The translations under genes were made by a program, and so were the position numbers. Source: Octopus sinensis (lineage: Eukaryota). Taken from it: a stretch of DNA of 64,000 nt. This document shows, piece by piece, positions 11,641 through 37,860 of this stretch. Within the stretch, counting starts at the first letter, position 1; each line of letters opens with the position of its first letter. A model generated the notes under the pieces. It had not been told where the DNA came from, searched no databases, and saw nothing but the letters and a program-made list of their open reading frames with translations. The stretch is taken from the NCBI RefSeq assembly GCF_006345805.1, contig NC_043014.1, positions 8,680,001 to 8,744,000 on the forward strand. Reading direction: 5' to 3'.

Positions 11641-12262
11641 GTATAAAAGCCATCTCAATATGGCTAACCACAAAGGGGGGTGTTACTGTAGCTTTTAGCC
11701 CCAGGAGATCATTGTCTCCAGCTGGTTTTAGACACACTTTCTGTGCCCTTATGGTATTTGCAAAGGGAGGCCATCTCTTTCTCGTAAGCCTGAGTGATAC
11801 GCACCGGACCGCGGTTTCGAGATTATTGTCTCTTATCAGATGGCTTTTATACTTTACATTGTCGAGCGATTACTGTTTACATCTCGTTCTGAGATTTAAT
11901 AATGCTTGCAGTCAGTTTTTCGAAATCAGTGGCAGAAGTCACTAGGAAAACTCTTATATATTTGCAAACAGGCCTTGTCTTTCATCGTGATCTAGTGATT
12001 ACCGCCCGTTGATAAGAGACATTAATCTCGAAACCACGGTCCGGTGCGTATCACTCAGGCTTACGAGAAAGAGATGGCCTCCCTTTGCAAATACCTTAAG
12101 GGCACAGAAAGTGTGTCTAAAGCCAGCTGGAGACGATGATCTCCTGGGGCTAAAAAGCTACAGTAACACCTCCCTTTGTGGTTAGCCATATTGAGATGGC
12201 TTTTATACTTTACATTGTCGAGCGATAACTGTTTACATCTCGTTCTGAGATTTAATAATGCT
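11634..12262 (+). mobile_element. Penelope-like non-autonomous element: inverted partial copy, 356-bp monomer, partial direct repeat
   Basis: 11634-11838 is the reverse complement of 12010-12215. 11839-11907 repeats directly at 12195-12262. Flanked by (TA)n. Confidence 0.75.
12003..12048 (+). ncRNA. Type I hammerhead motif with U3-A8 compensatory core (family 3)
   Basis: cgcccg UUGAUAA gaga-cauuaa-ucuc GAAA ccacgg UC cggugcg. The inverted partial copy at 11800-11838 has the perfect palindrome ACCGCGGU. Confidence 0.72.
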
Positions 12263-12650
12263 ATATATATATACACAAAACTGCACACACACACACGCAC
12301 ATACATTATAGATTTTTATATTAATGTTACAATTGATGTGTAGATGAGGGTGTGTGCTATTTAGCAGATGAAATGTGTCACAAACATATTTTAACTAACC
12401 TAAACCTTGTTTATGCCTCAGTGGTGGCATGAATCGTAATAGGTCATTGCACCAGCGAACTTTATATCATAAATCTGTTCCTTTAAACACAGTTTATTCA
12501 GCCAATGAAAATCTTCGAATTTCTTTGTTCGCTTTTTACTTTTTTCTTTTTTATTTTGTAATCTTTCCTTTGCTTTATGGTTTCTTAAAACAACAATGAA
12601 AGATTTCATTAGAAAATAGTCTGTGTTCGCCTGTCTATAGTGAATGTGTG

Positions 12651-12687
<37 letters not shown>

Positions 12688-13014
12688 GTGGTTAGGGCAG
12701 CGGACTCGCGGTCGCAGGATCGCGGTTTCGGTTCTCAGACCGGGCGTTGTGTGTGTTTATTGAGCGAAAACACCTAAAAGCTCTACGAGGCTCCGGCAGG
12801 GGGTGGTGATCCCTGCTGTACCCTTTCACCACAATGGCGGTGCCCCAGCATGGCCACAGCTCAAGAGCTGAAACTGGAAAAACAAACAAAACAAAAAATA
12901 TATATATATATCTTTTATCTTTTTCTTTTGTCAGTCATTAGACTGCGTCTAGAATAATAGAATGAAAGAATATTATATATATCTTTTTTATTAAATTCTT
13001 CTCGTAATAGAATT

Positions 13015-13906
13015 GGTCTGATCAATAAGTATCCGGATGGTTGCAATAATAACGAAGCGAAAGCACGTTGAGTAAAGCCGCTTGGTGCAAACTGACCTTG
13101 AATTCTTTTGTGTAAGTGTACTAAGTTTCAATGTTCTAAGTTACTTCCACTGCTTACAGCAGTGCTTGGAAGGAAGGTGTGTAGCGTGTGATCGTCACAT
13201 TAACCAGAACAGAGAAAGTTAAGCAGAAAATCTGCATCACATTTTGCCAAAAGCTGAGTGATACCTGCTCAGAGGCCTATGCAAAGTTTTCAAAAACTTT
13301 TCATCGTTCTCGACACAATCACTTAGATTTTGTGCAACTGAAACCCGAGTGTCCTCTTGGTCAGCTGAAAGCAGTTTCGGCATAAACGTGCCAGACACGT
13401 GGCTCATACCCAAACCTTCAGTGATAATGGACTGAACTGAACCGTAACTAATCTGCGCATCCTCTGATAACTCACGGATGGTGATTCGACGATATCCCCT
13501 CACAGCTACACGCACAACTGCGATGTTTCTCTCAGTTCTGCTGGTTGCAATTCTCCCACAACGTTCACCAGTATTGACATTTTTTTGGCCATCCTCGAAT
13601 GTCTGAACCACTCGTACATTTGTGTGCGGCTCATACACTCCTCTCCATACACTTTCTGCAACTTTGCGTAGGCCTCTGAGAAGGTGTCGCCATGACAACT
13701 TTCTCCGTCATGGTCAATGAGACGATCACACGCTACACACCTTCCTTCCAAGTACTGCTCTAAACAGCGGAAGTGAGTTATATCATTAAAACTTAATGCG
13801 CTTGCCCAGCAGAGTTCAAGTTTAATCTGTGCTAAGCAGCTTCACACTGCGTTCTTTAGCTTCGTTACTATGGCAACAGTCCGGATACTTGTTGATCAGA
13901 CTTCGT
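13015..13906 (-). mobile_element. Decayed, internally rearranged mariner (Tc1/mariner) transposon with long inverted ends
   Basis: Frameshifted mariner transposase N-terminus (SEAYAKLQKVYGEECMSRTQMYEWF; RRITIRELSEDAQISYGSVQSIITEGLGMSHVSGTFMPKLLS). Termini GTCTGATCAATAAGTATCCGGA and TCCGGATACTTGTTGATCAGAC are inverted. Confidence 0.88.
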
Positions 13907-13999
13907 GTGTGTGTGTGTGTGTCTGTATGTGACCGCGTGTGTACCGTTGTCGATTTTTTTCCCTCTGTCTTCCCTTCTCTGGATCTTTCCTTCTCCTAT

Positions 14000-14034
14000 G
14001 TTTCCGACGAAGAGCTCCGCTCGAAACGTTAAAA
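14000..14034 (+). ncRNA. Minimal hammerhead motif (family 1, U4C variant)
   Basis: Same motif as 11166-11200. Confidence 0.62.
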
Positions 14035-14196
14035 CCTCCTTTTTTCCTTCTTTCCGGAGCGTCCAATAATACTTTATTTGTTCCACGTCCTCGCGTTGTG
14101 TGTTTTTTTTTGTGCTTTCTTGTTTGTATTAACACTACACACACACACACACAACACACACACCACACCACACCACACACACCACACCACACACAC

Positions 14197-14248
<52 letters not shown>

Positions 14249-14359
14249 GAATTTGTTGCTGAAACTGTTCCTGAATTTCAAAAACTTGTAATTGTTTTAA
14301 AAAAATTATTTATATACATACCAAAGTAGTTTCACCAACCAGTTTTTATCAATTTTTTG

Positions 14360-14459
14360 NNNNNNNNNNNNNNNNNNNNNNNNNNNNNNNNNNNNNNNNN
14401 NNNNNNNNNNNNNNNNNNNNNNNNNNNNNNNNNNNNNNNNNNNNNNNNNNNNNNNNNNN
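14360..14459. other. Assembly gap (100 N)
   Basis: Run of 100 Ns, so the true distance across it is unknown. Confidence 0.99.
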
Positions 14460-35448: not shown

Positions 35449-35456
35449 ATATATAT

Positions 35457-35509
<53 letters not shown>

Positions 35510-35534
35510 ATAAATATATGTGTGTGTATGTATG

Positions 35535-35578
<44 letters not shown>

Positions 35579-35983
35579 ATCATCACTTGGCAACTGGTGC
35601 TGGTGTGTTTACGTCCTTGAAACTCCGCGGTTCAGCAAAAGAAAAAAAAACAAAGAGTGCTGGGGGTCGATTTGTTCAACTAAAACCCTTCGAGGTGGTG
35701 CTCCAGCATGGCCACTGTCATATGACTGAAGCAAACCAATTAAAACAATGTGAATAAATAAGCATTACACTTGTCCGAAAAATCAGAATCGCTGAAGGGT
35801 CAAACACATATTGAAGCATCCCTGTAGTCTGTTCATTTAATTCCAGCCGTCCCATTCTCTCCTTTGATATCAGCTGAGAGACACATCATCATCATCATCA
35901 CAATTGACAAAATAAGATGGGAAAATAAAACACAGAGTGAATGAGTATTTCCATATAATCACTCTACTTGCTCCAAAAATCTA

Positions 35984-36585
35984 GGCGCAGGAGTGGCTGT
36001 GTGGTAAGTAGCTTTTTTACCAACCACAGGTGGCACGTAAAAAGCACCTACTACACTCACGGAGTGGTTGGCGTTAGGAAGGGCATCCAGCTGTAGAAAC
36101 ATTGCCAGATAAGACTGGAGCCTGGTGCAGCCTTCTGGCTTCCCAGATCCCCGGTCGAACCGTCCAACCCATGCTAGCATGGAGAGCGGACATTAAACGA
36201 TGATGATGATGATGATGATGATGGTTCCGGGTTCAGTCCCACTGCATGGCACCTTGGGAAAGTGTCTTCTACTATAGCCTCGGGCCAACCAAAGCCTTGT
36301 GAGTGGATTTGGTAGACGGAAACTGAAAGAAGCCCGTCATATATATGTATATATATATGTATATGTGTGTGTGTTTGCGTGTCTGTGTTTGTCCCCCTAG
36401 CATCGCTTGACAACTGATGCTGGTGTGTTTATGTCCCCGTCACTTAGCGGTTCGGCAAAAGAGACCGATAGAATAAGTACTGGGCTTACAAAGAATAAGT
36501 CCCGGGGTCGAGTTGCTCGATTAAAAAAAGGTGGTGCTCCAGCATGGCCGCAGTCAAATGACTGAAACAACTAAAAGAGAGTAAG
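35984..36585 (+). mobile_element. SINE family A interrupted by a (GAT)n-tailed family D element (about 36029-36220)
   Basis: The family A head breaks at CAACCAC and resumes at ATGGTTCCGGG after the inserted element. Confidence 0.78.
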
Positions 36586-36862
36586 AGCATGTCTCTCTCT
36601 CTCTCTCTCTATTTGGTCTTGTGGCATGGAGCAAATTCAACTTGCAATGAAAGTAAGGAGATGTGAGTTCGATCCTCATAGCTGGCCTGTAACGACTTTT
36701 TCTGCAATATATGGACAATTTATCCTGTTCATGTTATTGTATTAGCATTACCATGCATTTGAGAATAAATTATTTCTGTATCTTTCAATACATCTCAACA
36801 CTTCTAAAGCAAACTTAGCTTACTTTCATCATAAGTTGAATATATATATATATATATATATA

Positions 36863-37343
36863 TACGTGAATTATGGAATGGGGTAGGTAAGTTCTGGGTT
36901 ACGTATGTCTCATAGCAGGTGGAACCTCAGAAGTGGTAAATATCCAAGTGAGGTGTATAACGCAGGCTACTTTTCAGCGCAAGGATATTTTGATTAAATT
37001 AAATATATGTAAAGTATACTAGCCATCTCAACATGGCTAAGCATTAAGGGTGGGTGTTACTGTAGCTTTTAGCCCCAGGAGATCATCGTCTCTAGCTGGC
37101 TTTAGGCACACTTTCTGTGCCCTTATGGTATTTGTAAAGGGACGTCATCCCTCTCTCGTAAACCTAAGTGATACGCACGGACTGCAGTTTCTAGGTATTT
37201 GCCTGTCTTCGGCGTACGGCAGTCACCGGTTTACGATGAAAGGGAGACCTGTTTGCAAATACTTACAGGTTTTTCTAGTAACTTCTGTCACTGATTTCAA
37301 AAAACTGTCTGCAAGCAATAATAAATCTCTGAACGAGATGTAA

Positions 37344-37376
<33 letters not shown>

Positions 37377-37860
37377 CGTGAATTATGGAATGGGGTAGGT
37401 AAGTTCTGGGTTACGTATGTCTCATAGCAGGTGGAACCTCAGAAGTGGTAAATATCCAAGTGAGGTGTATAACGCAGGCTACTTTTCAGCGCAAGGATAT
37501 TTTGATTAAATTAAATATATGTAAAGTATACTAGCCATCTCAACATGGCTAAGCATTAAGGGTGGGTGTTACTGTAGCTTTTAGCCCCAGGAGATCATCG
37601 TCTCTAGCTGGCTTTAGGCACACTTTCTGTGCCCTTATGGTATTTGTAAAGGGACGTCATCCCTCTCTCGTAAACCTAAGTGATACGCACGGACTGCAGT
37701 TCTAGGTATTTGCCTGTCTTCGGCGTACGGCAGTCACCGGTTTACGATGAAAGGGAGACCTGTTTGCAAATACTTACAGGTTTTTCTAGTAACTTCTGTC
37801 ACTGATTTCAAAAAACTGTCTGCAAGCAATAATAAATCTCTGAACGAGATGTAAATATAT
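36863..37860. repeat. Near-identical tandem duplication, 512-bp period, bounded by (TA)n
   Basis: Units start TACGTGAATTATGG at 36863 and 37375. Confidence 0.92.
37174..37218 (-). ncRNA. Type I hammerhead motif (family 3, U4C variant)
   Basis: cguacg CCGAAGA c agg-caaaua-ccu a GAAA cugcag UC cgugcg. Second copy at 37686-37729 lacks one core A. Confidence 0.65.

What the first reader, a model, noticed from the sequence alone, without database searches (positions are those of the whole stretch)
12003..37729. Three diverged members of one element family show covariation in all three hammerhead stems
Seen: elements at about 11634, 16335 and 37005 share homologous bodies (GTAAAGTATA...CTGTAGCTT...AGCCCCAG...CTGTGCCCT), but the ribozyme differs while pairing is preserved. 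Stem II is gaga/ucuc, ggg/ccc or agg/ccu. The stem III palindrome is ACCGCGGU, ACUCGGGU or ACUGCAGU. The core is UUGAUAA, CUGAUGA or CCGAAGA. Two of the three have an unusual C...A juxtaposition at the base of stem II. Inference: this is internal comparative evidence for a conserved RNA structure, and the differing palindromes could restrict dimerisation to members of the same subfamily.
Basis: partly seen in the sequence, partly recalled or inferred. Interest (0 to 1): 0.75.

Follow-up and report, generated by a model that had tools for sequence, protein, structure and literature searches.

The report
Retrozyme family with shifting dimer palindromes
These repeats are copies of a protein-free jumping element whose predicted self-cutting RNA keeps its base pairs while its sequence drifts, including a short palindrome that can only pair between two copies, so it likely works in pairs, as is already known for this kind of element.

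Summary
Observation confirmed, with corrections. The three elements belong to a ~350-bp non-coding retroelement family (8,149 exact body-motif and 2,647 hammerhead-pattern matches genome-wide; controls 0). Each full unit has a type I hammerhead. Insertions look Penelope-type: inverted 5'-truncated arms, tails, (TA)n targets, long target duplications, arrays up to 7 units.

Covariation holds in a 76-row alignment. The two middle palindrome bases covary (CG, GC, AU, UA); being adjacent, they can pair only between two ribozymes. Seven perfect palindromes occur. The 10.1·11.1 pair is mismatched in 11 of 14 clusters; 1,007 copies have C3/G8 with a pyrimidine·A there. I found no such C·A variant in print.

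Retrozymes, palindromic dimer stems, U3-A8 and a U·U mismatch are published, and this scan found this or a similar family on other DNA. Subfamily-exclusive dimerisation is unshown: predicted energies allow it and the palindrome changes fast (p about 0.045, post hoc), but lineages share palindromes and 48 of 50 multi-ribozyme loci are one type anyway. Cleavage is untested.

The parts
11634..12262 (.). Type A two-armed insertion between (TA)n tracts: inverted 5'-truncated arm, full unit and tail
   Evidence: (L061)
11634..11838 (-). Inverted arm, truncated at the hammerhead core; perfect palindrome at 11808-11815, C17 at 11807; no 5' strand of stem I
11860..12215 (+). Full 356-nt unit in ribozyme sense, ending at the family's fixed 3' end
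11995..12054 (+). Type I hammerhead A: U3-A8 core at 12010-12016, G10.1-C11.1, palindrome decayed by one base, predicted cut after 12041
12216..12262 (+). 47-nt tail (start of the next unit), a Penelope-type extension
16315..16598 (-). Type B copy, 5'-truncated, with part of the tail
16497..16555 (-). Hammerhead B: canonical core, C10.1·A11.1, palindrome with U·G wobble, predicted cut after 16509
37005..37344 (-). Type C copy, nearly one unit
37168..37226 (-). Hammerhead C: U4C core, C10.1·A11.1, palindrome centre UGCA, predicted cut after 37180
37517..37856 (-). Second type C copy from a 512-bp local duplication that includes flank; GAAA lacks one A; C17 at 37692
18737..18901 (-). B-like family fragment without a hammerhead
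34548..34632 (.). Very short A-like insertion (3' end plus inverted tail) without a hammerhead

Best explanation
The three elements are diverged copies of a ~350-bp protein-free retroelement family (a non-LTR retrozyme) with thousands of copies, whose type I hammerhead likely cuts as a dimer joined through its palindrome and which is likely copied into the genome by a Penelope-type reverse transcriptase. SHOWN: family, copy number, 351-357-nt tandem units, preserved pairing in stems I and II and the 3-8 tertiary pair, a self-complementary palindrome that changes between lineages, insertion anatomy, and intact RT plus GIY-YIG elements in the same genome. INFERRED: a multimeric transcript folds; two neighbouring hammerheads swap strands to form an 8-bp (or 6-bp) shared stem III and cut after GUC; monomers are ligated to circles; a Penelope enzyme primes at an AT-rich or (TA)n nick from a fixed point roughly 175 nt downstream of the cut site and copies one template for more than one round. 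Selection keeps the palindrome self-complementary because the partner is normally an identical neighbour, so each lineage drifts to its own palindrome. Incompatibility between lineages is then mostly a by-product. C·A, C·U and U·U at 10.1·11.1 and U4C are probably slower but tolerated variants.
For: Counts: 2,647 hammerhead-pattern and 8,149 body-motif matches, controls 0. Pair counts: inner palindrome pair CG 25, GC 20, AU 9, UA 2, GU/UG 2, unpaired 7 of 65; outer pair paired in 65 of 65; 3-8 pair CG 41, UG 11, UA 10, other 3. In 81 position-ordered loci whose central four bases were left free, 75 are self-complementary. A two-base-shorter palindrome occurs in type A (13 of 27 rows) and again in L242, which fell outside that cluster; it allows only one pair in cis. 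Cis stem III is predicted unfavourable (hairpins +1.9 to +2.9; +0.2 to +1.9 in context) while like duplexes give -7.2 to -14.9. Arrays of 7 E units and 3 F units. Three real units fold as circles with z -4.4 to -5.5 against crude shuffles. Of 84 loci, 37 have an inverted arm, 61 exceed one unit by more than 20 nt, 36 have a direct repeat of 7 nt or more at the ends (some low-complexity) and 35 have a TA flank; truncated arms keep the same 3' end. Two copies in one locus are closer than to their five nearest outsiders in 15 of 22 (p 0.02). ORFs of 781 and 775 aa match RVT_1 and GIY-YIG. The palindrome centre went from CG to GC inside the C·A clade, so the fold was still selected on that background. 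Weak hint: a 383-nt contig in run X1 (RNA is a guess; organism A) closes on itself after 352 nt.
Against: No cleavage, dimer or circle was measured. In bioRxiv 10.64898/2026.07.22.740005, 8 of 9 tested Xenopus dimers did not cleave. Two of five covariation measures were not significant, and related copies inflate the others. Core letters were fixed by my search pattern, so their invariance is circular. No homology was found between this family and the ends of the Penelope elements in 34 loci, apart from a separate family copy beside one and a 54-nt hit at E 0.011, so the partner is unidentified. Rfam gives only sub-threshold hammerhead hits, for 2 of 7 loci. Window copies A and B carry decay mutations.
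Confidence: 0.8

Rival explanations
1. One reading: the palindrome is a lineage password. Coexisting lineages are selected to differ so that dimers, trans-cleavage or template switching occur only within a lineage.
For: Most cross-duplexes carry 1-3 mismatches. Lineages with different palindromes have overlapping low divergence: E 2.6%, G 4.6%, C 4.9%, A 5.4%, F 8.5% (A and C are biased low by best-hit sampling). On a 14-cluster tree the four palindrome columns need 13 changes; 0 of 194 other four-column windows need as many; pair-corrected p about 0.045, post hoc. The one composite insertion of two types, L025 (D+C), joins types with the same palindrome.
Against: C, D and D2 share a palindrome; E and B' share one; E/B and B/B2 pair fully. 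Partners in cis are identical by descent (48 of 50 loci). No convincing mosaics were seen even between compatible lineages (2 flagged of 141, both doubtful), so the test has no power. L025 is one case, and C and D are also the closest relatives (89%). CpG mutability and forced double changes can explain the fast turnover.
Confidence: 0.17
2. The C·A and U4C lineages are catalytically dead or nearly so. The palindrome is kept only to dimerise the RNA or recruit the enzyme, and these lineages spread from uncleaved multimers.
For: 10.1-11.1 is called the most conserved pair after A15.1-U16.1, and U4C lowers activity in vitro (PMC3088659); G10.1 is a metal ligand (PMC7151607). Type C combines both changes. 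Insertion ends do not coincide with the cut site.
Against: Stems I and II, loop lengths, the 3-8 pair and GUC stay in place across the C·A clusters. A U·U mismatch there still cleaves in the axolotl retrozyme (PMC7229834). In B the motif can also be read as the published extra base after A9 followed by a G-C pair, with one more A before G12.
Confidence: 0.15
3. The hammerhead works as a monomer with a 2-bp stem III and tetraloop; the palindrome reflects a DNA-level or protein-binding constraint.
For: Invertebrate retrozyme monomers with 2-bp stem III do cleave (coral and mussel, PMC7229834). Some monomer activity is therefore likely for E.
Against: Adjacent inner bases covary through four pair types. 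The shortened palindrome leaves one cis pair. A sequence-specific protein site would not tolerate seven different centres.
Confidence: 0.1
4. These are only truncated 3' ends (pseudo-LTRs) of an autonomous Penelope element, not an independent retrozyme.
For: The insertion anatomy is that of Penelope elements; Penelope fragments lie in 6 of 176 family loci.
Against: Units run head-to-tail into themselves at 351-357 nt. In the five of those six loci that I read, the Penelope fragment is not directly joined to the family copy. The autonomous elements examined have different, minimal hammerheads.
Confidence: 0.05

Closest known systems
Metazoan non-LTR retrozymes: coral, mussel (350-390 bp), axolotl (330/350 bp) (Cervera and de la Pena 2020, PMC7229834; read parts 2-4 of 6; supplement unreadable)
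   Same: Size, non-coding tandem units each with a type I hammerhead, target duplications longer than 4 bp, short palindromic helix III, a mismatch at the base of stem II in one family (axolotl Amex2, U·U), Penelope elements in the same genome.
   Different: Here one family spans many lineages with at least seven palindromes. 10.1·11.1 is C·A, C·U, U·U, G·U or G-C. Most copies are dispersed one- to two-unit insertions, many with inverted arms. Expression as circles is not shown.
Penelope-element hammerheads (Cervera and de la Pena 2014, PMC4209133; read parts 1-2 of 4, searched supplement file 2, file 1 not searched)
   Same: Palindromic 15.2-16.2 and loop 3, dimer model, U3-A8 variant, consensus families full of compensatory changes.
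   Different: Those are minimal motifs with long helix II, an extra base after A9 and a highly conserved G10.1-C11.1, inside coding elements. These have 4-step stem II, 6-nt loop 2, a two-part stem I and no ORF.
Vertebrate retrozymes as Penelope derivatives (bioRxiv 10.64898/2026.07.22.740005; read parts 1-3 of 5)
   Same: Non-autonomous, co-occurring with Penelope elements, monomers to multimers.
   Different: There 24 of 57 Xenopus families matched known elements, nearly all Penelope termini; here no such homology was found. No cephalopod was sampled.
Natural core variants (Perreault et al. 2011, PMC3088659; read section 8 and passages)
   Same: U3-A8, U4C (viroid), U10.1·U11.1, and palindromic stem III in repeats (Fig. 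S8 legend).
   Different: No C10.1·A11.1 in what I read; their filter rejected any mispair at 10.1-11.1.
HIV-1 dimerisation initiation site (PMC4588261, passages; Chin et al. 2005 seen only as a title in its reference list)
   Same: Works-like analogy for the password idea: a short palindrome sets which RNAs pair.
   Different: A kissing loop for co-packaging in a virus, unrelated in sequence and mechanism; no equivalent effect is shown here.

Membership tests
Type I hammerhead ribozyme | Core C3 U4 G5 A6 N7 G8 A9 / G12 A13 A14, A15.1-U16.1, NUH cut site | tested here: met
   Met with variants: B canonical; A is U3-A8; C is U4C. Both variants are in PMC3088659. Genome-wide invariance is circular, because the pattern fixed these letters.
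Type I hammerhead ribozyme | Three stems, open end in stem I | tested here: met
   Stem Ia 95.4%, Ib 94.8%, II 80.8% and III 100% paired (III fixed by pattern); slid controls 26-50%.
Type I hammerhead ribozyme | Watson-Crick pair at 10.1-11.1 (usually G-C) | tested here: not met
   Unpaired in 39 of 65 rows and 11 of 14 clusters; met in A, D and E. Published exceptions are U·U, so this lowers 'canonical', not 'hammerhead'.
Type I hammerhead ribozyme | Loop 1-loop 2 tertiary contact | tested here: inconclusive
   A 6-nt loop 2 and a 4+2 internal loop are kept, but loop 2 was constrained by my pattern; the likeness to the Schistosoma loop is recalled, not tested.
Type I hammerhead ribozyme | Match to Rfam hammerhead models | tested here: inconclusive
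   E 32.2 bits (cut-off 34) and A 35.2 bits (cut-off 52); no hit for the other 5 of 7 loci; none among the 150 of 225 rows listed for the window.
Type I hammerhead ribozyme | Self-cleavage | not testable with these tools
   Needs in vitro transcription.
Non-LTR retrozyme | 150-450-bp unit in tandem copies, each with a hammerhead | tested here: met
   Units of 353, 354 and 357 nt; 7-unit and 3-unit arrays.
Non-LTR retrozyme | No protein coding | tested here: met
   Stop-to-stop frames over the elements are 100-131 aa and were not scanned against Pfam; Penelope proteins give no tblastn hit in the window.
Non-LTR retrozyme | Target duplications longer than 4 bp; no LTR, PBS or PPT | tested here: inconclusive
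   Direct repeats of 7 nt or more in 36 of 84 loci (no chance control). No LTR layout was seen; PBS and PPT were not searched.
Non-LTR retrozyme | Expressed as linear and circular monomers | tested here: inconclusive
   One self-closing 352-nt contig in a run guessed to be RNA; contigs cannot tell a circle from a tandem transcript.
Penelope-mobilised element | 5' truncation, partial tandems, inverted arm, short tail, microsatellite targets (PMC8557442, passages) | tested here: met
   inverted arm 37 of 84, TA flank 35 of 84, tails of about 25-50 nt.
Penelope-mobilised element | Intact RT plus GIY-YIG partner in the genome | tested here: met
   ORFs of 775-883 aa; two scanned match RVT_1 (just under cut-off) and GIY-YIG.
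Penelope-mobilised element | Sequence homology to a partner's terminal repeat | tested here: not met
   None in 34 loci; only 150 of 5,029 GIY-YIG candidates were scored.

The most novel reading that the evidence does not exclude
The stem III palindrome is a self/non-self code under diversifying selection. Coexisting retrozyme lineages have taken 7 of the 8 possible pyrimidine-first palindromes so that each dimerises, cleaves and template-switches only with its own kind, like a speciation barrier among RNA parasites, while slow C·A/U4C cores tune how long the RNA stays uncut for copying.
Probability: 0.15. Interest if true: 0.72.

Novelty: new variant of a known kind. Interest (0 to 1): 0.4.

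Why it matters
The family is a ready-made natural mutagenesis series for two open points. One is whether animal hammerheads act as dimers in vivo; covariation of two adjacent bases is direct comparative evidence. The other is how far the core can depart from consensus and still be propagated. About 38% of pattern matches (1,007 of 2,647) have a pyrimidine·A mismatch where standard searches demand a pair, so such ribozymes are undercounted. If palindromes also isolate lineages, it would be a sequence-coded mating barrier in a non-viral retroelement. Otherwise this is one more retrozyme.

Tried and rejected
Rfam on the window: no hammerhead among the 150 listed rows; the top hits are microRNA models on simple repeats. 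Partner search: no shared ends with Penelope elements in L177-L210; no direct junction in the five neighbouring fragments read. Recombination test: 2 of 141 typed copies flagged, both doubtful; 19 untyped copies were not tested. L066 (B' beside A) was rejected as a mixed insertion because a TA tract separates the copies. The 512-bp repeat at 37 kb was rejected as a multimer. Expression: no RNA holder listed; only contigs were available, so ends, strand and level cannot be read. In one search, runs X1, X2 and X8 cover the CAS-like exon and its 3' side in long contigs and two unique bins have almost no cover, which fits RNA but proves nothing; the C-like contig there has unaligned flanks and looks like a passenger copy. 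The first tree had long rows and unsettled bootstraps; two searches were used instead. Rows dropped: 8 of 81 loci with truncated 5' strands; 28 of 134 rows not in clusters; window-derived and duplicate loci. Literature: searches found no cephalopod retrozyme paper, no C10.1·A11.1 hammerhead and no heterodimer test. Lunse et al. 2017 and Nelson and Uhlenbeck 2008 were not held, and the 2020 supplement was unreadable; any of them may already show such variants. R-scape was not available.
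Full report
Observation. The three bodies and ribozyme motifs are at the stated places. Element 1 is a two-armed insertion: an inverted arm truncated at the core (11634-11838), a full 356-nt unit (11860-12215) and a 47-nt tail, between TA tracts. The quoted core and the quoted palindrome come from different arms. Element 2 is a 5'-truncated copy. Element 3 is duplicated locally with its flank at a 512-bp period. Representative copies of the three types are 71-84% identical.

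The family. The genome is 2.72 Gb; it is octopus-like by a recalled SINE resemblance and by earlier scan notes, which I did not test. DNA searches gave 2,958, 3,881 and 2,584 first-look candidates, with 40 scored each. A 35-letter hammerhead pattern that left stem II and the four central palindrome bases free matched 2,647 places, and a body motif 8,149; both reversed controls gave 0. The first 100 matches on contig 1 and further loci showed many lineages, which I labelled A, B, B', C, D, D2, E, F, G and H. Trees of the body without the ribozyme group the types (10 changes for 11 labels against 55.6 shuffled).

Covariation. Alignment A1 holds 3 window copies and 73 of 81 position-ordered loci. 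On its 65 distinct rows, 92.6% of cells pair against 84.1% shuffled, and the covariation score is 0.391 against 0.234 (0/500). Slid structures pair at 26-50%. The counts of pairs with double changes (11 vs 9.4, 75/500) and of extra pair types (31 vs 29.2, 92/500) are not significant. Copies are related, so these are not probabilities. Double changes occur in stem Ia, Ib, II, the C3-G8 tertiary pair (U3-A8 in 10 rows, U·G in 11) and both palindrome pairs.

The informative pair. The two middle palindrome bases are neighbours and cannot pair in one strand, yet they read CG 25, GC 20, AU 9, UA 2, wobble 2 and unpaired 7. Of 81 loci, 75 are self-complementary. Perfect centres seen: CGCG, UGCA, UCGA, CCGG, UAUA, CUAG and CAUG, plus the wobble form UCGG and a two-base form in two places. 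Predicted cis hairpins are unfavourable, while like duplexes give -7.2 to -14.9 kcal/mol. I infer a shared stem III between two ribozymes. The model itself is published (PMC4209133; PMC3088659, Fig. S8 legend; PMC6765202, passages).

The odd base of stem II. By homology between C and D the C...A occupies 10.1·11.1. It is unpaired in 39 of 65 rows and 11 of 14 clusters (C·A 6, U·U 4, C·U 1), and 1,007 genomic matches have C3/G8 with pyrimidine·A there. U4C is in 16 of 81 loci. G10.1 is a metal ligand (PMC7151607, passage) and U4C lowers activity (PMC3088659), so type C should be slow. Yet the palindrome changed from CG to GC inside the C·A clade, which argues that the fold was still selected. 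U·U is published (PMC3088659, PMC7229834). I did not find C·A, but Lunse 2017 and the 2020 supplement were unreadable. Rfam found only 2 of 7 loci, both below cut-off.

Mobilisation. Truncated arms keep one fixed 3' end in ribozyme sense. Of 84 loci, 37 have an inverted arm, 61 exceed one unit, 36 have end repeats of 7 nt or more and 35 have TA flanks. These features are described for Penelope elements (PMC8557442, passages). Arrays reach 7 units. Copies within a locus tend to share a template (15 of 22, p 0.02), and some E copies are identical between loci over the 200 columns compared, so E is very young. Intact RT plus GIY-YIG frames exist, but none examined shares ends with this family. 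The partner is inferred, not identified.

Expression. No run on record as RNA holds the sequence. One run guessed to be RNA has a 383-nt contig that closes after 352 nt. That fits a circle or a tandem transcript and is only a hint.

The password idea. For: the window's three palindromes are mutually poor partners; lineages of overlapping age differ; the palindrome columns change more than any of 194 other four-column windows, pair-corrected p about 0.045 and post hoc; the single two-type insertion joins types with one palindrome. Against: several lineages share or tolerate each other's palindrome; 48 of 50 multi-ribozyme loci are one type by descent; no convincing mosaics appear even among compatible lineages; CpG decay and forced double changes are confounders. 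I put it at about 0.15-0.17.

Verdict. A real, well-supported structured RNA in a known class of element. This scan had already noted this or a similar family on other DNA, after my reading was formed. What is added here is the adjacent-base covariation, the range of palindromes within one family, and the C·A/U4C lineages. Novelty: new variant of a known kind; interest 0.4.

Noticed in passing
window 14960-15440 (+): Two copies, 305 bp apart, of another hammerhead-like repeat (cores at 15031 and 15336); unrelated body; possibly a second retrozyme family.
   Followed up: partly
window 39270-39330 (+): Lone minimal-type hammerhead with an 8-bp stem II and palindromic stem III; no homology to the Penelope loci fetched.
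   Followed up: partly
window 43057-45744 (-): 895-codon frame matching Serine_rich and CAS_C (p130Cas-like last exon); contigs of three runs stop aligning at 45627, and cover continues to about 40750 on the 3' side.
   Followed up: partly
window 17092-18324: Array of about 17 copies of a 73-bp unit, with related single copies near 10958 and 56761.
   Followed up: no
L197-L204 (G000 C6, C3, C1, C19, C8, C10): Young two-ORF Penelope elements with intact RT plus GIY-YIG frames. Their 3' minimal hammerheads show the same two core styles as the retrozyme: U3-A8 with a paired stem II base in one family, U4C or U4 with U·U in another.
   Followed up: partly
L021, L023, L025, L105 against type C loci: Types C and D are 89% identical overall but differ at six clustered positions in the core and stem II base, suggesting module exchange or a rapid compensatory run.
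   Followed up: partly
L066, L157, L115, L201: Family copies sit in or beside TA tracts that flank other retrozyme or Penelope insertions, suggesting shared and self-renewing targets.
   Followed up: partly
L228:1250-1520: A more distant relative with the same body motif, an unusual core and a CGCG palindrome.
   Followed up: no
window 4326-4687, 47397-47860, 49891-50504, 58028-58549: Tandem 180-185-bp units of an abundant SINE-like repeat.
   Followed up: no
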